From an archaeon (GTDB lineage Archaea > Asgardarchaeota > Heimdallarchaeia > Hodarchaeales > S146-22): a stretch of 5,279 nucleotides of DNA. The stretch spans positions 1 through 5,279 of the forward strand of contig JAJRXH010000182.1 in NCBI GenBank assembly GCA_024276395.1, read 5' to 3'. Within the stretch, counting starts at the first letter, position 1; the number at the start of each line of letters is the position of its first letter. Shown piece by piece: positions 1-4,846 of the stretch. The position numbers and the translations under genes are program-made. Under the pieces are notes generated by a model that saw nothing but the letters and a program-made list of their open reading frames with translations, had not been told where the DNA came from and made no database searches.

Positions 1-1098
1 AAGTTCAGACATATCTGCCTTTCTTAATAATTCTAAGATTTTTTCACCCTCTAATTCGAGTGTAACTTGCTTTATTTCTGCATTTAATCGATCATTGATC
101 CTTATTTCAGTTTCACTGACTTCGGTATCAAAATGAGTCAAAGCATTACTTAGCCTCTGGTATTCAGAATCCATCCGAGGATCCGGCTCTCCAGTTTCCT
201 GCAAGTTCAAGATAAGATCCTGTAACTCTGTTAACACGGATAAATTAATGCCTTTCATAAATTCGTTAACCTTGGGATCAGCTATTTCAGCTAAGATTTC
301 TGCTAAAGAGGTAATCGCTAAAATGCTATCTCGATTACGCGCATAAAAAGATAATATCTTCTCAGGAAGCAGCTTTTCAAAGGAAATTCTACTAGTGAGG
401 GGAACAATAACTACATTTGGGAGATCAGAACCATAATAATCATTTTCACTAATGAGGATAACTTCATCATAAATCTGTGAGTACTCCAATAATTCTTCAG
501 GACTTTCTAATTTAGCAACTTCACAAAAATCGACTACCTTAGTTTGCTCTAACTTTTGATGTGTTTTTTCGTCATCATACAAGATGACCCGAGATCCCAC
601 ATCGATGCTTGTTTCTTGTTCTTTCAAAGGTTTCAAGTTTACCAAGAGGGAATCTATCTCTTTCAGTCGGCTTTCAAGAGTAGATACCAGTCCCAAGCTT
701 GCTCGAGCATATCCCTGCCTTTGTTTTATCGTTGAGAGTGATGTTCTCGGTAAAGGAAACCATAAATATGTTTTCGATTTCGAATATAACGTATTTCCAA
801 ACTCAGAAATCATTTCACGACATTTAAGATATAATTGTTCAGCATCCTTAGTCTTGATAAATTCTTCAATGTTTTCTCCAGTTTCCATGGAATGTAATGT
901 CCTTACTAACCTCACCGCAAATTTCTCGCCAATTCCTTCAATTCTACTTAAGCCAGAGATGTCAGCGTCCCGAATGGCTTGTAGGGCATTTTCTTCCGTA
1001 CCATACACCTCAATGAGACGTTCGGCAGTAGACTGCCCAACGCCACGCAGCTGTCTAAGACTAGTTATTTTTTTGCATGATTCCGCTTCATTTGACAT
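1..1098 (-). CDS. Partial CDS (N-terminal 366 codons; C-terminus lies beyond window start). Tandem helix-hairpin-helix (HhH) DNA-binding protein of unknown overall function, possibly the N-terminal part of a larger DNA-repair protein.
   Basis: Absent from the ORF track because it has no stop in the window. Hand translation of the minus strand from the ATG at 1098-1096 stays open to position 1. I checked every plus-strand triplet in phase 1 for tta/cta/tca and found none. An in-frame stop lies just upstream at 1110-1108. GAGGG (1105-1109) sits 6 nt before the ATG. The N-terminus is MSNEAESCKKITSLRQLRGVGQSTAERLIEVYGTEENALQAIRDADISGLSRIEGIGEKFAVRLVRTL, with two Gly-hydrophobic-Gly hairpins (GVG, GIG) spaced as in (HhH)2 modules. 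The rest is charged and helical-looking. Confidence 0.75.
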   Translation of the reverse strand, partial: MSNEAESCKKITSLRQLRGVGQSTAERLIEVYGTEENALQAIRDADISGLSRIEGIGEKFAVRLVRTLHSMETGENIEEFIKTKDAEQLYLKCREMISEFGNTLYSKSKTYLWFPLPRTSLSTIKQRQGYARASLGLVSTLESRLKEIDSLLVNLKPLKEQETSIDVGSRVILYDDEKTHQKLEQTKVVDFCEVAKLESPEELLEYSQIYDEVILISENDYYGSDLPNVVIVPLTSRISFEKLLPEKILSFYARNRDSILAITSLAEILAEIADPKVNEFMKGINLSVLTELQDLILNLQETGEPDPRMDSEYQRLSNALTHFDTEVSETEIRINDRLNAEIKQVTLELEGEKILELLRKADMSEL

Positions 1099-1185
1099 TT
1101 TCCGCCCTCAGTTCTCTTCCTTATTTGTCCATACATCACTTGGTTTTACAACACCATCATCATTACCCACAAACAATTTTAACTT

Positions 1186-2103
1186 TCAAGTAAAAAATGT
1201 GACCCTCTTTGGTGCAGTTTTTTCCATAAAGATCTTTAATTCTGCACGTGAACAATGTTCCGAATAAGGAATCCAAAATATTCCATTTTTAGGATCACTT
1301 TCATTAAGGACTGCCCATCCGGTTGGTATTATTTTGATCCCTGATTGAAGTCGTTTTCGATGTGGATATCGCCTCAGTATTTCAGGTTTTGAATGTTCTA
1401 ATGCTCTACGAGGCGCTAATAGGATGTTGGTGTCATCTGGATCTTCAGTAAACATTTCATAGCCAAGAGCTTCATAAACCTTCTTGATTTTTGGAGTGGC
1501 CCATATTTTTTGGTGAGTTAAACGATTCAACGCCTCAAACACTTTTTCCTTTCCAATGGTATAACACCCAATGAATTTATCATAAAACGGAAAATGTAAA
1601 GCTAGTTTCATAAGAGTATTGATGGCCTCTCGTTGTGGAGGAAATTGAAAGATTGGGCGATTATAGGTCCCATCAGCAATCATCAAGTCAACACCTTGTA
1701 TTTTTTCCAAGAAGTGATCCATGACCACTGGATCATATCTAAAATCACCAGTAAAGAATTCCCTTCGACCTTCAGACTCGAACAAAAACATTAATGACCC
1801 AATGCAATGGTTCGCCTCAAAAGCCGTGACATTAACACCATCAACTGAAAAAGAAGCATTTTCTTCAATGACGATGAAACGTTCAGAAGGTATCCCCTCT
1901 GTTAACTCAAGAATGACCTTTGTTTCTCGTGAACAAACTATCTTGGCTTCTGGGTAACTATTTAACAGTCTTTTTAGCCCTCTTGTATGATCACTATGTG
2001 CGTGACTCAGAAAAAAATATGGTTCTGTCTGTTTCAATAATCTTTTTTGCTTTGAGGGATCTGGAAATTCATCAGCCCAGAAGCGACCTAACATCAACGG
2101 CAT
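1186..2103 (-). CDS. Metallo-beta-lactamase fold beta-CASP nuclease, SNM1/PSO2/Artemis-like (DRMBL type); also comparable to bacterial ligase-associated exonucleases.
   Basis: The track ORF 1186..2136 starts at a TTG. The first ATG (2103) is preceded by GGGTGAT, which matches the GGUGAU core of the Shine-Dalgarno consensus, so 2103 is preferred. Motifs read from the translation: YFFLSHAHSDHTRGL (HxHxDH), FEANHCIGS (motif 3 His), FFTGDFRY (motif 4 Asp), MIADGTY (beta-CASP motif A), YTIGKEKVFEAL (SNM1-type IGKEK block), and C-terminal IPYSEHCSRAELKIF (motif C His; compare the eukaryotic PYSEHSS..EL block). Confidence 0.9.
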   Translation of the reverse strand: MPLMLGRFWADEFPDPSKQKRLLKQTEPYFFLSHAHSDHTRGLKRLLNSYPEAKIVCSRETKVILELTEGIPSERFIVIEENASFSVDGVNVTAFEANHCIGSLMFLFESEGRREFFTGDFRYDPVVMDHFLEKIQGVDLMIADGTYNRPIFQFPPQREAINTLMKLALHFPFYDKFIGCYTIGKEKVFEALNRLTHQKIWATPKIKKVYEALGYEMFTEDPDDTNILLAPRRALEHSKPEILRRYPHRKRLQSGIKIIPTGWAVLNESDPKNGIFWIPYSEHCSRAELKIFMEKTAPKRVTFFT

Positions 2104-2162
2104 TAAAATCACCCTAATCTCTAAGTTACAGTTCAATTAAATCATTAATAAATTTAATGGAT

Positions 2163-3077
2163 CTACAGGGCCCTTGCTCCCATTTTTTCAACATATAACG
2201 CAAGTAAATCACTCAACTTCCCTAAATACGTCTTATTAACCAAAAAAACATCAAAATCTACGATAGATAGTAAATTCTGATAAAATTTCCCCTTTTCAAA
2301 GTTTTTTCTTTTCTTGGCAACCATATTCAATGGAGTCCCTGTCATATAGGGATTAGCAGAGGGTAAAACTGTAATCGTTATCATCTTGTCATATATCGGG
2401 GTTTCGTGCACGTCACTCTCAATAGAAGGAATGACTCCATGACTGGACACCCGTAACATCTCAAGCCAATCATCAAGAGAGAGTTTACCTTGCAATATTA
2501 CTGGCAATCGATGTTTCACCAAGTTATCATCAACAAGGACCACAGCTGGATGAAGATGACCCAACAATACCTCCTCAGCCACAGCCAAATTTATTGGTGG
2601 AACATGACCATGAGCACAGCCAACCCGAGTTTCACCGAAAGCAAGTAAAGAACCTCGACTATCGTGCATCATCAATCCGCTAAATTCGTGTTTACGGAAC
2701 AACACATCATGATTACCAACAAGCAAATGTGACTGAACTCCGTTGGCATGTAACAAATCGAAAAACTCTCGCAATTCAGTAATTAACCATCGACTGTAAT
2801 GTGGCGTACGAATAAACGAAGCTCCACGTGATGTTGACTTATCATCATTAAAATGAGGGAAAGAGTGAATGAAATCTCCCAAAAGAACCAAGTAATGCAC
2901 GTTTTCTTGGTTGATCACTGCAAACAACGAGTTTAACAAGGCTCTCGACGAATCAAACGGCAGATACAGGCCACGCCGACGATATTCCGCATCATACCCA
3001 ACGTGAAGGTCTGCAACAAACAAGACCTTGCGACCTTCGAACTTACGAATTAGCCATTTCTCAAGTGTTCTTGTCAC
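2163..3077 (-). CDS. Calcineurin-like metallophosphoesterase, PdeM / archaeal SbcD-related (ligase-associated phosphoesterase-like) family.
   Basis: Track ORF with a GTG start at 3077 that overlaps the upstream gene's stop by 17 nt (3061-3077). Motifs: FVADLHVGY (DxH), LVLLGDFIHS (GDxxH), LLVGNHD, CAHGH, LGHLHP (GHxH), then RLPVI and ITVLPSANPYMTGTPLN. From memory, the ADLHxG...RG..lP start, GHxHP and lPaF..tGG tail are the pattern of PdeM-type enzymes. Confidence 0.85.
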   Translation of the reverse strand: MTRTLEKWLIRKFEGRKVLFVADLHVGYDAEYRRRGLYLPFDSSRALLNSLFAVINQENVHYLVLLGDFIHSFPHFNDDKSTSRGASFIRTPHYSRWLITELREFFDLLHANGVQSHLLVGNHDVLFRKHEFSGLMMHDSRGSLLAFGETRVGCAHGHVPPINLAVAEEVLLGHLHPAVVLVDDNLVKHRLPVILQGKLSLDDWLEMLRVSSHGVIPSIESDVHETPIYDKMITITVLPSANPYMTGTPLNMVAKKRKNFEKGKFYQNLLSIVDFDVFLVNKTYLGKLSDLLALYVEKMGARAL

Positions 3078-4278
3078 CTTCTTGTCCCACGGAAACGATT
3101 TGTTCTAGAAATTCCAATATTTTTTGCATTATTACTTCTAAAGTGACGCCAGACACTAAATTCAAGCCAGCTGCCCTCGAATGACCACCACCACTTCCTT
3201 CAAAGTGATTAAGGAGCCAAGGTAGCAAGTCTTTCGCCATGTTCACCCCAGTTCTCTCCTTAAAATAGGAAGAAGCTCTAATGCTCACTCTGGTTTCCTC
3301 TTTTCTCTGAGCAACTACCACGACAAGATCAGCTCCTAATGACAACAATGCCCTTGCTGCTGAAGATTCGTGAGAACTCACGTGAGTAAATAAGAGAATG
3401 AGATCATTAAGCATTCTTCGTCGCATTCGTTGTGCAGCCTTTATTCTGGCAATCTTCTCAGATGGTCCCATTTGCACCTGCAATAGATTCCGAGAGAGAG
3501 AATATACATCTGGATGCACGTCACAGAGATAACTCAGAACTGCGAACAAGCGTGAGGATGCTCGAGTTAAAAAACCCGAATCATAAAGAATGCCACAAGT
3601 CAATGCAATTGATACGGTCATGTTAATTTTGTATTCATTGATATATAATAAAGTCGCTATCATCTCTGACGTAGATCCACATATTGATGAATGAAGATAT
3701 AATGTAGCTTTCTCTGCAACATCATCGGAGTATTCATGATGATCAATGATGATGAAAGAAATTTCATCTTTTTCTCGCAAAATTTGCGCAGCGATGGGAC
3801 ATATCTCTAGGTTATTAGCATCCACTACTATTAGTAAAGATACATTTGAGAATTTAAGAGCATCTTTTGAATGAACTGTAATTCTTAGATAATTCATTAT
3901 TTGATCACTAATGACGCTTGCATCATCTAAAGTAAGAATGATATTACTCTTTTCCTTCAATATCTCCTTGATCAAGCATTCCATTCCTATCATTGCGCCA
4001 ATGGCATCAGGATCTGCCTGCTGATGCGTTGTAATTATAATCGTTCCTTTAGAAAGGCTCTTTTCTTGCAAAAGTAGCCATCTCAAGTTCTCAAGAAATT
4101 CTTCCATTGTTTTTGTTTCCAATTTCCCTTTATCACCATTCGTTGTCAGTTCATTGTACAATATAACTCTAATTTTAAACGAGATGAAACATTCATTTTT
4201 TTCTACAGCCTCACAAATAAACGCAAACCAACTAATTTCAAGATAATTTTGACTTGATCCATTTATAACACTGTTCAA
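3061..4278 (-). CDS. DHH/DHHA1 family phosphoesterase (RecJ-like / NrnA-like nuclease); start codon uncertain.
   Basis: Track ORF. Motifs: TTHQQADPDAIGAM (DHH motif I), LIVVDANN (II), FIIIDHHEY (III, DHH), CGILYDSGFL (IV), GSGGGHSRAAGL (DHHA1 GGGH). The 4278 start is a TTG. The first ATG is at 4107 (M58, MEEFLENL...) and puts motif I about 27 aa from the N-terminus, as in NrnA-like proteins. However, the 57 upstream codons stay open in AT-rich DNA, which argues they are coding. Confidence 0.85.
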   Translation of the reverse strand: MNSVINGSSQNYLEISWFAFICEAVEKNECFISFKIRVILYNELTTNGDKGKLETKTMEEFLENLRWLLLQEKSLSKGTIIITTHQQADPDAIGAMIGMECLIKEILKEKSNIILTLDDASVISDQIMNYLRITVHSKDALKFSNVSLLIVVDANNLEICPIAAQILREKDEISFIIIDHHEYSDDVAEKATLYLHSSICGSTSEMIATLLYINEYKINMTVSIALTCGILYDSGFLTRASSRLFAVLSYLCDVHPDVYSLSRNLLQVQMGPSEKIARIKAAQRMRRRMLNDLILLFTHVSSHESSAARALLSLGADLVVVVAQRKEETRVSIRASSYFKERTGVNMAKDLLPWLLNHFEGSGGGHSRAAGLNLVSGVTLEVIMQKILEFLEQIVSVGQEGDKNT

Positions 4279-4554
4279 GCGAACTATTCTACCATTTAAT
4301 CATCAAGTTAGCATTTGACTGTTCTTGAAGAAATATGGTTCTTTTTCATTGAATAGATTTTGATTATTTGATACATTTTACAGAAATTCGGCCATAATAC
4401 ATTCACGAGTCCTCGCAAAGATTGAACCACGAAAATTAACTAAACCTTATATCTAAAGGTTTCATACAATGAAACGTCCACGTGGGAATGTTTTTATCGA
4501 ACCTTTCCATCAATGAAAATCCCACGACCAAGAAGGTGCAACATTTCCATTCTC

Positions 4555-4570
4555 GCAAGGCTTTTATAAA
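4555..4570 (+). promoter_or_regulatory. Archaeal-type promoter candidate for the 5S precursor: purine-rich BRE-like GCAAGG followed by TATA box TTTTATAAA.
   Basis: gcaaggcttttataaa read at 4555-4570. A start about 22-27 nt downstream of the TATA box would fall near 4590-4596, just before the first leader nucleotides that pair with the trailer (4596 onward). Confidence 0.5.
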
Positions 4571-4595
4571 GATCCCCCCAGAGTGTTACATGTCA

Positions 4596-4614
4596 AACAA
4601 GAAAGAGACGCGTG
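4596..4614 (+). other. Leader arm of the precursor processing stem.
   Basis: GAGACGCGTG (4605-4614) is the perfect reverse complement of CACGCGTCTC (4777-4786). Weaker outer pairing: 4600-4604 with 4801-4805 and 4596-4598 with 4807-4809. Confidence 0.7.
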
Positions 4615-4617
4615 AAA

Positions 4618-4631
4618 GGGTGCCGGAGGTT
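4618..4631 (+). other. Leader-side strand of the bulge-helix-bulge-like motif: GGGTG outer helix, CCGG central helix, AG(G) bulge, GTT inner helix. Predicted cut at 4628|4629.
   Basis: Base pairs read by hand: 4618-4622 with 4755-4751; 4623-4626 with 4747-4744; 4629-4631 with 4743-4741. Confidence 0.65.
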
Positions 4632-4749
4632 AAGCCCGCCGCCGCCTGGCAGAGTACTGCGGTGCGAGAGCCCGCGGGAAACGTCGGGTGTCGACCCTCG
4701 GGTCGGCCATAGGGGCGGGGCAACACCCGGTCTCATACCGAACCCGGAA
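4629..4749 (+). rRNA. rrf: Circularly permuted 5S rRNA gene: 3' half 4629-4696, CUCG cap 4697-4700, 5' half 4701-4749.
   Basis: The segment 4701-4749, GGTCGGCCATAGGGGCGGGGCAACACCCGGTCTCATACCGAACCCGGAA, matches the archaeal 5S 5' portion: helix I 5' strand, AUAG loop A, helix II, and helix III/loop C. The segment 4629-4696, GTTAAGCCCGCCGCCGCCTGGCAGAGTACTGCGGTGCGAGAGCCCGCGGGAAACGTCGGGTGTCGACC, matches the 3' portion: GUUAAGCC, helix II 3' strand, AGUAC loop E, the helix IV hairpin with CGAGAG, GGGAAAC, helix V, and helix I 3' strand. Supporting pairings: helix I 4690-4696/4701-4707; helix II 4634-4640/4714-4721 with one bulged G; helix IV 4657-4662/4672-4677; helix V 4645-4650/4683-4688. Confidence 0.85.
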
Positions 4750-4755
4750 ACACCC
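4741..4755 (+). other. Trailer-side strand of the bulge-helix-bulge-like motif: AAC inner helix, CCGG central helix, AAA 3-nt bulge, CACCC outer helix. Predicted cut at 4749|4750.
   Basis: Same pairings as the leader-side feature. The trailer side is a canonical helix / 4-bp helix / 3-nt bulge / helix half-site. Confidence 0.7.
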
Positions 4756-4769
4756 GAGGTTGCGACCTT
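4756..4769 (+). other. Small trailer hairpin, GAGGT-UGCG-ACCTT (5 bp including one G-U, UNCG-type tetraloop).
   Basis: Read directly: 4756-4760 pairs with 4769-4765, loop 4761-4764. It lies between the BHB outer helix and the 10-bp clamp. Confidence 0.4.
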
Positions 4770-4776
4770 CAGAATG

Positions 4777-4809
4777 CACGCGTCTCGGACAATGTCCTCT
4801 TTTCTCGTT
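4777..4809 (+). other. Trailer arm of the precursor processing stem, interrupted by a GGAC-AAT-GTCC mini-hairpin (4787-4797).
   Basis: CACGCGTCTC (4777-4786) pairs perfectly with 4605-4614. 4801-4805 and 4807-4809 can pair with 4600-4604 and 4596-4598. Confidence 0.65.
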
Positions 4810-4846
4810 ACCCCGACAAAAGCGTGCTAGTCAGAACATTATTTCC

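What the first reader, a model, noticed from the sequence alone, without database searches (positions are those of the whole stretch)
4618..4755. BHB-like splicing motif at the permutation boundaries; its predicted cuts regenerate the conserved 5S junction to the nucleotide
Seen in sequence: the outer helix GGGTG (4618-4622) pairs with CACCC (4751-4755). The central 4-bp helix CCGG (4623-4626) pairs with CCGG (4744-4747). Exactly 3 unpaired A residues (4748-4750) lie on the trailer strand. A4627 and G4628 are unpaired on the leader strand (or AGG, if C4743 is left unpaired). The inner helix GTT (4629-4631) pairs with AAC (4741-4743). Both strands read helix, 4-nt central helix, bulge, helix in the 5' to 3' direction, which is the polarity of archaeal bulge-helix-bulge substrates. 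Established knowledge: the archaeal tRNA-splicing endonuclease cuts after the second bulge nucleotide, and RtcB-type ligase joins the ends, circularising whatever lies between the two cuts. Applied here, the cuts fall at 4628|4629 and 4749|4750. Joining A4749 to G4629 yields GAACCCGGAA-GUUAAGCCC, the contiguous helix III/loop C sequence of archaeal 5S rRNAs. The leader-side bulge is relaxed (2 nt, or 3 nt opposite 1), so the enzyme would need to tolerate non-canonical BHBs.
Basis: partly seen in the sequence, partly recalled or inferred. Interest (0 to 1): 0.9.

Follow-up and report, generated by a model that had tools for sequence, protein, structure and literature searches.

The report
Permuted 5S rRNA gene, BHB-spliced
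The window holds a 5S ribosomal RNA gene whose two halves are in swapped order, flanked by a conserved archaeal splicing motif whose predicted cuts would restore a correct, probably circular, 5S rRNA; the same layout occurs in several Asgard-type archaeal lineages and standard annotation misses it.

Summary

- **Permuted gene.** Rfam's 5S model matches 4699-4749 as positions 1-51 and 4629-4699 as positions 52-120. The predicted cuts (4628|4629 and 4749|4750) fall exactly on the permutation point.
- **Relatives.** I found the same arrangement in 24 distinct sequences: two syntenic relatives, 13 GTDB genomes (Njordarchaeota, Odinarchaeota and others) and 15 metagenome contigs.
- **Motif conservation.** All keep a leader/trailer helix, a 4-bp helix and a 3-nt trailer bulge. 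All 14 tested outer pairs show changes on both sides.
- **Shifted registers.** Two lineages have the motif shifted by -1 and +1 nt. Their cuts still rebuild GGAAGYUAAGC.
- **Functional 5S.** De-permuted sequences fold as canonical 5S, with 25 of 33 pairs compensatory. Helix I is always closed by a short loop (UUCG in 9 of 24), which suggests a circular mature RNA.
- **Caveats.**
  - The proposed inner helix is not supported.
  - The central helix competes with native helix III and is absent from the window's minimum-energy fold.
  - No RNA data were available.
- **Annotation and novelty.** No locus gets a 5S call at Rfam's gathering score. I found no report of a permuted archaeal 5S gene. I rate it a new variant of a known kind; the closest precedent is the Thermoproteus permuted SRP RNA.

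The parts
4553..4570 (+). Archaeal promoter: BRE-like CGCAAGG followed by the TATA box TTTTATAAA (4562-4570)
   Evidence: Read directly. The block TTCCATxCTCGCAAGGCTTTTATAAA is invariant in syntenic L001 and L004 while the surrounding spacer has diverged (A1; A5). Most other permuted loci have a TATA-like box 45-60 nt upstream. Its function as a promoter is inferred.
4590..4596 (+). Predicted transcription start region, about 25 nt downstream of the TATA box, inside the conserved GTTACATGTCAA
   Evidence: Inferred from archaeal promoter geometry (established knowledge) and from conservation in A1. Not mapped.
4600..4614 (+). Leader strand of the long processing stem (core GAGACGCGTG, 4605-4614)
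   Evidence: Pairs with 4777-4786 (and 4600-4604 with 4801-4805) in both the free and the BHB-constrained fold. A-U to G-C and G-C to G-U changes occur in L001 (A1).
4618..4622 (+). BHB outer helix, leader strand (GGGTG)
   Evidence: Complementary to 4751-4755. U4621-A4752 becomes C-G in L001 and L004. The homologous helix covaries in 14 of 14 pairs across 20 sequences.
4623..4626 (+). BHB central 4-bp helix, leader strand (CCGG)
   Evidence: Pairs with 4744-4747. In relatives, three pairs are invariant and the fourth is AU 6, GU 4, GC 3, mismatch 7. It is perfect but different in sequence in the shifted-register loci: L027 CGUG/CACG and L072 UCCG/CGGA.
4627..4629 (+). Leader bulge A-G-(G); predicted cut 4628|4629
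   Evidence: Read directly. Relatives have AA^G or AG^G here. The cut position follows the BHB rule, which was validated on neighbouring tRNA introns in relatives. Cleavage itself is inferred.
4629..4698 (+). 3' part of the 5S rRNA (Rfam model 52-120: loop B/helix II 3' strand, helices IV-V, helix I 3' strand), encoded first
   Evidence: RF00001 match 4629-4699, 26.7 bits, E 3e-4, marked as cut off at its 5' end.
4690..4707 (+). Helix I closed as a hairpin: GUCGACC (4690-4696), loop CUCG (4697-4700), GGUCGGC (4701-4707). The natural 5S termini are joined here.
   Evidence: Folds. All 24 permuted sequences close helix I with a 3-5 nt loop.
4699..4749 (+). 5' part of the 5S rRNA (Rfam model 1-51: helix I 5' strand, loop A, helix II, helix III/loop C), encoded second
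   Evidence: RF00001 match 4699-4749, 35.8 bits, E 9.5e-7, marked as cut off at its 3' end.
4744..4747 (+). BHB central helix, trailer strand (CCGG). The same bases form the 3' strand of helix III in the mature 5S.
4748..4750 (+). Trailer 3-nt bulge AAA; predicted cut 4749|4750
   Evidence: Read directly. The first two A residues are invariant and end up in the mature 5S. The third nucleotide, which is removed, varies (A or U) in relatives.
4751..4755 (+). BHB outer helix, trailer strand (CACCC)
4756..4769 (+). Trailer hairpin GAGGU-UGCG-ACCUU
   Evidence: Present in the BHB-constrained fold. The UGCG loop is kept and the stem is compensated in L001 and L004. Its role is unknown.
4777..4786 (+). 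Trailer strand of the long processing stem (CACGCGTCTC)
4787..4805 (+). Small hairpin GGAC-AAU-GUCC followed by the T-rich CTCTTTTCT: a likely transcription stop
   Evidence: Fold. CTCTTTTCT is conserved in L001 and a T-tract is present in L004. Termination at oligo-T is established knowledge for archaeal RNA polymerase; it was not mapped here.

Best explanation
Window 4629-4749 is a functional, circularly permuted 5S rRNA gene in an AT-rich, probably Asgard-related archaeon. It has its own TATA promoter and an oligo-T stop. The primary transcript (about 4592-4805) carries the 3' two-thirds of 5S first, then the 5' third. The natural 5S ends are joined by a 4-nt loop that caps helix I.

The leader and trailer pair with each other. 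A 10-bp or longer outer stem is followed by a relaxed bulge-helix-bulge: a 5-bp helix, a 4-bp central helix CCGG/CCGG, a 3-nt trailer bulge and a 2-3-nt leader bulge. The archaeal tRNA-splicing endonuclease (EndA) cuts two nucleotides 3' of the central helix on each strand (4628|4629 and 4749|4750). RtcB-type ligase joins A4749 to G4629. This restores the continuous GGAA-GUUAAG segment of helix III/loop B and yields a 121-nt covalently closed 5S rRNA, which then refolds so that CCGG 4744-4747 pairs within helix III.

The circle, with helix I capped, is most likely the mature form.

Shown here: the permutation, the motif, its conservation and covariation, and the exactness of the junction. Inferred: the enzymes, the ligation and the final circular state.
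For: 1. **Permutation.** The two Rfam half-matches abut at model 51|52. The joined RNA folds as 5S. Across 22 permuted sequences the de-permuted alignment gives the canonical 5S fold, with 25 of 33 pairs showing compensatory changes.

2. **Real gene, not an artefact.** The same arrangement sits at the syntenic position in L001, L003 and L004 with a conserved promoter. There are 24 distinct sequences from 13 GTDB genomes and 15 metagenome contigs.

3. **BHB motif.**
- In 21 of 24 sequences the best-scoring motif predicts the canonical junction.
- The outer helix has 14 of 14 pairs changed on both sides. Overall 86% of cells are paired, against 27-46% when the partner is slid, and 0 of 500 shuffles reach this.
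- The leader base opposite the variable helix III base is A or G when that base is U, and G when it is C.
- L027 (Odinarchaeota) and L072 have perfect canonical motifs shifted by -1 and +1 nt, and these still yield GGAAGUUAAGC.
- At the fixed register in the window, chance gives 2 in 200,000.

4. **Cut rule.** The same rule applied to intron-containing tRNA genes in relatives' loci (in L071 and L092 directly upstream of the permuted 5S) gives tRNAs that ARAGORN recognises as intron-less.

5. **Circular end state.** Helix I is capped by short loops in all 24 sequences: UUCG in 9, plus UCCG, GUAA and GCAA.

6. **Precedent.** The permuted SRP RNA of Thermoproteus is cut at a BHB by EndA and functions as a circle (PMC4731332).
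Against: - No RNA-level data were available.
- In the window's own clade there are only 3 sequences. The helix next to the bulges is only 4-5 bp, and the leader bulge is 2 nt if G4629 pairs.
- The inner helix is not supported.
- The central helix uses bases that also form native helix III.
  - It is absent from the window's minimum-energy fold; the BHB fold is 3.8 kcal/mol worse, with pair probability 0.04-0.17.
  - It appears in the minimum-energy fold of only 5 of 24 precursors.
- In the 7 aligned sequences (8 of the 24 loci) with AACACGG, the fourth central pair is a mismatch.
- The leader CCGGAG repeats the trailer CCGGAA. Part of the self-complementarity could therefore be a relic of a tandem duplication.
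- The EndA subtype of these organisms, and so its tolerance of relaxed motifs, is unknown.
- I could not scan whole genomes for a second, ordinary 5S gene.
Confidence: 0.78

Rival explanations
1. Processing and ligation occur as above, but the circle is only an intermediate. A second nuclease opens the helix I loop (4697-4700) and trimming gives an ordinary linear 5S rRNA. This would parallel permuted tRNA genes, whose circular intermediate is opened to give normal ends.
For: Permuted tRNA genes of Cyanidioschyzon merolae work this way (as cited in PMC4267664). Archaeal 16S circles are re-linearised (PMC12918454).
Against: The helix I caps differ in sequence and length between lineages, so there is no common cleavage signal. 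They are enriched in hyperstable UUCG/GNRA tetraloops, which suggests selection for a retained cap. Circular SRP RNA and circular 23S rRNA show that circles can be end products.
Confidence: 0.15
2. The RNA is excised but never ligated. The mature 5S is a linear permuted molecule with its ends between A51 and G52 and a capped helix I, comparable to the permuted mitochondrial 5S of brown algae.
For: Brown-algal mitochondrial 5S rRNA is permuted in the final product (PMC4267664). Nothing here shows ligation directly.
Against: The cuts leave no gap or overlap in any of three different registers. That is what continuity of the chain requires. EndA products (2',3'-cyclic phosphate and 5'-OH) are the natural RtcB substrates (established knowledge; PMC4731332). 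A nick here would leave the helix III hairpin attached by one strand only.
Confidence: 0.05
3. The leader/trailer duplex is a processing stem for a different, unidentified nuclease. The BHB-like geometry is a by-product of the short direct repeat CCGGAR left by the duplication that created the permutation.
For: The leader CCGGAG resembles the trailer CCGGAA. CCGG is self-complementary. The central helix is thermodynamically disfavoured in most precursors. Archaeal 5S maturation by other endonucleases is documented (PMC10515664).
Against: In 10 of the 24 sequences the leader reads CCGA; in 9 of these the trailer is UCGG, so the leader is complementary to it, not a copy of it. In L027 and L072 the leader tetramers (CGUG, UCCG) are complementary to shifted trailer tetramers and are not repeats. 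The 3-nt trailer bulge and the two-nucleotide offset of both cuts are kept everywhere.
Confidence: 0.04
4. The locus is a pseudogene or an assembly artefact, such as a collapsed tandem 5S array.
For: Rfam scores the locus below its gathering threshold as a whole (21.8 bits against 38).
Against: Independent assemblies from ENA, NCBI, Logan and JGI give the same structure. Synteny and the promoter are conserved. Covariation is strong in both the 5S body and the flanks. The loops joining the halves are 3-5 nt, not spacers.
Confidence: 0.01

Closest known systems
Permuted SRP RNA gene of Thermoproteus tenax/uzoniensis (Plagens et al. 2015, PMC4731332)
   Same: A non-coding RNA gene with its halves in swapped order. 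The leader and trailer form a BHB across the permutation point. Cleavage is by the tRNA-splicing endonuclease, ligation is attributed to RtcB, and the functional product is a circle.
   Different: A different RNA (5S rRNA, a ribosome component) and different lineages (Asgard-type rather than Thermoproteales). Here cleavage and circularity are predicted, not demonstrated. The motif overlaps a helix of the mature RNA (helix III).
Circularly permuted tRNA genes (Cyanidioschyzon merolae, Soma et al. 2007; also reported in Thermofilum, from my own knowledge)
   Same: The 3' half precedes the 5' half. A BHB-type motif is processed by the splicing machinery and a circular RNA is formed (cited in PMC4267664).
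   Different: In tRNAs the circle is an intermediate that is reopened to give the acceptor-stem ends. Here the helix I caps suggest that the circle is final.
BHB-dependent circular pre-16S/pre-23S rRNA and circular mature 23S rRNA in archaea (PMC12918454; bioRxiv 10.64898/2026.03.23.713588)
   Same: A processing stem of leader and trailer carries a BHB. EndA and ligase produce a circular rRNA. Circular 23S can be the ribosomal form.
   Different: Those genes are collinear, not permuted, and circularisation joins the natural ends. The cited paper states that this pathway applies to 16S and 23S 'but not 5S rRNAs'.
Permuted mitochondrial 5S rRNA of brown algae (Valach et al. 2014, PMC4267664)
   Same: A 5S rRNA whose helix I is replaced or closed by a hairpin, with its ends lying elsewhere in the molecule. 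Standard models miss it.
   Different: It is organellar. Its ends lie at the junction of the alpha and gamma domains. There is no BHB and no religation, and the product stays permuted.
Low-abundance circular forms of ordinary 5S rRNA (S. solfataricus, P. abyssi, H. salinarum)
   Same: Circular 5S species exist in archaea.
   Different: They come from collinear genes without a BHB. Their junctions are heterogeneous, and they are interpreted as intermediates or degradation products.

Membership tests
5S rRNA (Rfam RF00001) | Sequence and structure match to the covariance model at or above the gathering score (38 bits) | tested here: inconclusive
   As encoded, the locus scores 21.8 bits, below the threshold. 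No 5S call is made at gathering score in 20 loci. The two halves score 35.8 and 26.7 bits and abut at model 51|52. The tool cannot score the joined sequence.
5S rRNA (Rfam RF00001) | Three-way junction with helices I-V supported by covariation, and conserved loop A, loop C and loop E motifs | tested here: met
   The de-permuted alignment of 22 sequences gives the canonical fold under RNAalifold, with 25 of 33 pairs compensatory. CCAUAG, CCGAAC-N-CGGAAGYUAAGC and AGUA...GGGAA are all present.
Archaeal bulge-helix-bulge (BHB) splicing substrate | Central helix of exactly 4 bp between the two cleavage sites | tested here: met
   CCGG 4623-4626 pairs with CCGG 4744-4747. In relatives, 3 pairs are invariant and the fourth is paired in 13 of 20. 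It is perfect in L027 and L072. It competes with helix III in predicted folds.
Archaeal bulge-helix-bulge (BHB) splicing substrate | Two 3-nt bulges on opposite strands, each immediately 3' of the central helix | tested here: inconclusive
   The trailer bulge AAA 4748-4750 is 3 nt in all sequences. The leader bulge is A4627, G4628 plus G4629, so it is 3 nt only if G4629 stays unpaired; G4629 pairs with C4724 in the 5S fold.
Archaeal bulge-helix-bulge (BHB) splicing substrate | Flanking helices on both sides (strict hBHBh') | tested here: not met
   The outer helix is present and covaries. The inner helix is not supported: its middle pair is unpaired in 17 of 20 sequences. The motif is therefore the relaxed hBH form, not the strict one.
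Archaeal bulge-helix-bulge (BHB) splicing substrate | Cleavage by the tRNA-splicing endonuclease after the second bulge nucleotide | not testable with these tools
   The rule reproduces intact tRNAs from intron-bearing genes in relatives' loci, two of them (L071, L092) adjacent to the permuted 5S. Cleavage of the 5S precursor itself needs an experiment.
Permuted RNA genes restored by BHB splicing (Thermoproteus SRP RNA type) | 3' part encoded upstream of the 5' part in one transcription unit, with the natural termini joined by a short loop | tested here: met
Permuted RNA genes restored by BHB splicing (Thermoproteus SRP RNA type) | Predicted cuts regenerate the uninterrupted consensus sequence | tested here: met
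   The junction GGAA-GYUAAGC is found in 22 of 24 sequences. The two shifted registers give the same product.
Permuted RNA genes restored by BHB splicing (Thermoproteus SRP RNA type) | Circular junction detected in RNA | not testable with these tools

The most novel reading that the evidence does not exclude
Whole clades of Asgard-type archaea have no collinear 5S gene at all: Njordarchaeota, an Odinarchaeota lineage, the window's unnamed lineage and at least one more. Their ribosomes would contain a covalently closed circular 5S rRNA made by the tRNA-splicing machinery. This would be the first permuted rRNA gene that needs splicing to become functional, and the first naturally circular 5S. 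It would also explain apparent '5S-less' genomes from these groups.
Probability: 0.5. Interest if true: 0.88.

Novelty: new variant of a known kind. Interest (0 to 1): 0.82.

Why it matters
5S rRNA is universal, and its gene is regarded as trivially recognisable and always collinear in archaea, bacteria and nuclei. Recent work on archaeal rRNA circularisation explicitly excludes 5S (PMC12918454).

A family of permuted 5S genes would have four consequences:
- It would add a ribosomal RNA to the short list of RNAs (tRNA, SRP RNA) whose function depends on EndA/RtcB rearranging the chain.
- It would imply a circular 5S rRNA inside ribosomes of lineages close to the eukaryotic stem.
- It exposes a systematic annotation gap. 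None of 20 loci gets a 5S call at Rfam's threshold, which affects genome-quality criteria that require a 5S gene.
- It gives clear, cheap tests: junction reads in existing metatranscriptomes, and in vitro EndA cleavage.

The one-nucleotide register shifts between lineages are also a natural experiment on how the endonuclease measures its cut sites.

Tried and rejected
- **Whole-window Rfam scan.** It gave only a sub-threshold, badly aligned 5S hit at 4699-4800. It became informative only when each half was searched separately.
- **Exact look-up of the window's metallophosphoesterase.** It is not on record, so the source contig was not recovered. Relatives came from DHH homologues instead.
- **First genome contigs pattern.**
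  - It anchored the 3' half with only TAAGC, so 59 of 72 hits were ordinary 5S genes with a chance upstream TAAGC. I sorted these out by the downstream sequence.
  - My first estimate of chance hits ignored this source of false positives.
- **Cluster names for P0001-P0003.** None were available.
- **Synteny walk through L15e relatives (L094-L097) and L006.** No 5S of either kind was nearby.
- **MAFFT on BHB-anchored constructs.** It re-aligned L027 and L072 by 5S sequence. I left them out of the pair counts and treated them separately.
- **Inner helix GTT/AAC(4741-4743).** Tested and rejected.
- **Thermodynamic folding as a test of the BHB.** It does not favour the central helix. I treat this as a caveat, not a refutation, because those bases must switch partners during maturation.
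- **sigma-70 promoter/terminator scanner.** Not used, because it does not cover archaeal promoters.
- **C/D-box-like hits at 415-476.** Judged to be chance.
Full report
**Observation**

The window is AT-rich (about 30-40% G+C around the locus), with a G+C island of 63-68% at about 4600-4800.
- GGGTG 4618-4622 and CACCC 4751-4755
- CCGG 4623-4626 and CCGG 4744-4747
- AAA 4748-4750
- A4627 and G4628
- GTT 4629-4631 and AAC 4741-4743

Joining A4749 to G4629 gives GAACCCGGAA-GTTAAGCCC.

A whole-window Rfam scan gives only a poor 5S match (4699-4800, 21.8 bits against a gathering score of 38). Searched separately, the two halves match well:
- 4699-4749 matches model positions 1-51 (35.8 bits, E 9.5e-7).
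- 4629-4699 matches positions 52-120 (26.7 bits, E 3e-4).

The gene is therefore circularly permuted, and the break is at model 51|52. The re-joined 121-nt RNA folds into the 5S three-way junction. The natural 5S termini are joined by a hairpin: GUCGACC-CUCG-GGUCGGC, 4690-4707.

**Is it more than chance?**

I fixed the 5S body and shuffled the leader and trailer. A 4/4 central helix plus at least 5 outer pairs in this exact register appeared in 2 of 200,000 shuffles. In a register-free scan of the real flanks, however, three other BHB-like combinations score about as well. RNAfold of 4590-4815 predicts the long leader/trailer stem (GAGACGCGUG 4605-4614 with CACGCGUCUC 4777-4786), but it does not predict the BHB central helix. 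In the minimum-energy fold the leader GGG.GCCGG..GUU pairs with the 5' strand of helix III instead. The BHB-constrained fold is 3.8 kcal/mol worse. The window alone is therefore suggestive, not decisive.

**Relatives**

The neighbouring genes all lie on the minus strand:
- a DHH phosphoesterase
- a metallophosphoesterase
- a DRMBL-type metallo-beta-lactamase
- an HhH/MutS-like protein

The DHH protein has two close homologues (64% and 59% identity). The next hits, at about 36%, are from Asgard phyla. The contigs of the two close homologues are syntenic and carry the same permuted 5S at the same place and strand (L001/L003 and L004).

Their alignment (A1) shows several things:
- An invariant promoter block, CTCGCAAGGCTTTTATAAA, and a conserved T-rich stop.
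- A compensatory U-A to C-G change in the outer BHB helix.
- An A-U to G-C change in the long stem.
- Variation (A to U) only in the third trailer-bulge nucleotide, which is removed.

A ribosomal protein of L001 is at most about 65% identical to named sequences. The best named hits are Hermod-, Baldr- and Helarchaeota. The lineage is therefore Asgard-like but unnamed.

**Wider distribution**

A pattern scan of one genome per GTDB species gave 72 loci. Of these, 59 are ordinary 5S genes with a chance upstream TAAGC. The other 13 are permuted:
- five Njordarchaeota MAGs
- one 'Promethearchaeati' MAG
- one Odinarchaeota MAG
- two 'uncultured archaeon' MAGs
- four MAGs labelled Crenarchaeota or Nitrososphaerota

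One of the last four (L062) has the same 5S as a Njordarchaeota MAG (L075). The other three are 87-94% identical to Njord-labelled sequences.

A stricter pattern on JGI metagenomes gave 15 loci, all permuted. Together there are 24 distinct sequences in at least six clades that are only 55-78% identical to each other. At Rfam's gathering score, none of 20 such loci receives a 5S call.

**The 5S body is under selection as 5S**

The de-permuted alignment of 22 sequences gives the canonical fold. Of 33 predicted pairs, 25 have compensatory changes.

**The BHB**

An unbiased scan looked for an outer helix, a 4-bp helix and a 3-nt trailer bulge. In 21 of 24 sequences its best hit was a motif whose cuts, two nucleotides 3' of the central helix on each strand, give the canonical junction. 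In those sequences the outer helix is 10-16 bp. The window clade has 4-5 bp, followed by an internal loop and the 10-bp stem.

On a gap-free alignment of 20 leader/trailer constructs:
- All 14 outer pairs show changes on both sides.
- 86% of cells are paired, against 27-46% when the partner is slid by 1-3 columns.
- No shuffle out of 500 reaches the observed values.

The central helix has three invariant pairs. Its fourth pair tracks the variable helix III base (AU 6, GU 4, GC 3) but is mismatched in the 7 aligned sequences (8 of the 24 loci) with AACACGG.

The strongest evidence comes from two lineages with a shifted register:
- L027 (Odinarchaeota) has CGUG/CACG with bulges AAA and GAA. Its cuts give GGA|AGUUAAGC.
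- L072 has UCCG/CGGA with bulges AAU and AGA. Its cuts give GGAAG|UUAAGC.

Both motifs are perfect canonical hBHB, and both regenerate the same 5S sequence. These leader tetramers are complements of the trailer, not copies of it. This argues against the idea that the pairing is only a relic of the short direct repeat (CCGGAG/CCGGAA in the window).

The same cut rule was applied to intron-bearing tRNA genes in relatives' loci; those in L071 and L092 lie directly upstream of the permuted 5S. It gives tRNAs that ARAGORN accepts as intron-less.

**What is not supported**

The inner helix GTT/AAC(4741-4743) is not supported. Its middle pair is unpaired in 17 of 20 relatives. In the 5S fold, GUU pairs with AAC 4722-4724. 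The motif is therefore a relaxed hBH form.

The central helix uses the same CGG that forms helix III in the mature RNA. Predicted folds contain it in only 5 of 24 precursors. Processing therefore requires a conformer in which helix III is open, followed by refolding.

**Fate of the product**

All 24 sequences close helix I with a 3-5-nt loop. UUCG occurs in 9, alongside UCCG, GUAA and GCAA; the window clade has CUCG. Diverse but often hyperstable caps, with no shared cleavage signal, suggest that the cap is retained. After ligation the mature 5S would then be a covalently closed circle. This is inferred.

The closest precedent is the permuted SRP RNA of Thermoproteus. It is cut at a BHB by the splicing endonuclease and is functional as a circle (PMC4731332). 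A circle that is later re-opened (as for permuted tRNAs), or an unligated permuted RNA (as in brown-algal mitochondria, PMC4267664), remain possible.

**Literature**

Ten full-text searches found no report of a permuted archaeal 5S gene or of a BHB-derived circular 5S.
- PMC12918454 states that excision and circularisation apply to 16S and 23S 'but not 5S rRNAs'.
- 5S maturation in methanogens is attributed to other endonucleases (PMC10515664).
- Low-level circular forms of ordinary 5S are known and are thought to arise without a BHB.

The library lacks most subscription-journal papers, so prior description cannot be excluded.

**Verdict**

The finding is a new variant of a known kind, namely a BHB-restored permuted RNA gene, here for 5S rRNA and spread over several Asgard-type lineages. 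Cleavage, ligation and circularity still need RNA-level proof.

Noticed in passing
window 4756-4769: Trailer hairpin GAGGU-UGCG-ACCUU. The UGCG loop is conserved, and the stem is changed compensatorily in L001 (AGGGU/ACCCU) and L004 (GGAC/GUCC). It lies in the part discarded with the trailer, and its function is unknown.
   Followed up: partly
window 4618-4631 with 4722-4734: In the minimum-energy fold of the precursor, the leader (GGG.GCCGG..GUU) pairs with the 5' strand of helix III. It thus mimics the real 3' strand of helix III (CCGGAAGUU). This could act as a folding chaperone or a timing device, or it could be a relic of a tandem duplication.
   Followed up: partly
window 4428-4452 and 4492-4501: Two conserved islands (CACGAAAATTAACTAAACCTTATAT and TTTTATCGAA) sit in the otherwise diverged AT-rich spacer between the DHH operon and the 5S promoter (alignment A5). 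They may be further promoter or regulatory elements.
   Followed up: no
window 415-476 (- strand): Weak C/D-box-like Rfam matches (SNORD64/SNORD50, E 0.5-0.75) lie inside the HhH/MutS-like coding region. C and D boxes and a terminal stem are present, but the second guide spacer is only 8 nt, so this is probably chance.
   Followed up: no
window 1-4107 (- strand); L001, L004, L005: A conserved four-gene cluster: DHH/DHHA1 phosphoesterase, metallophosphoesterase, DRMBL (SNM1/Artemis-like) metallo-beta-lactamase, and an HhH + MutS_V protein of 733 aa in relatives. It looks like a nucleic-acid repair or processing operon. The listed DHH ORF (TTG start, 405 aa) is about 57 aa longer than its homologues, so the likely start is the ATG at 4107.
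   Followed up: partly
L013 1879-2462, L036 3069-3474, L071 5581-6177, L088 79-469, L092 1934-3188: In one Njord-type clade the permuted 5S lies directly downstream of a tRNA gene cluster on the same strand. Some of these tRNAs have BHB introns, which suggests co-transcription and shared processing.
   Followed up: partly
L024, L028, L055, L062, L080, L082, L083, L086 (leader CCGG or CCGA against trailer ACGG): All permuted 5S genes whose helix III base is A have a G-A or A-A mismatch at the innermost central-helix position rather than the expected U. It is unexplained whether this is tolerated by the enzyme or forms a non-canonical pair.
   Followed up: no
L062 and L075; L013, L036 and L053 compared with L039 and L071: One MAG labelled Nitrososphaerota (L062) carries a permuted 5S identical to that of a Njordarchaeota MAG (L075). 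Three more, labelled Crenarchaeota or Nitrososphaerota (L013, L036, L053), are 87-94% identical to Njord-labelled sequences. The record labels are probably misassignments.
   Followed up: no
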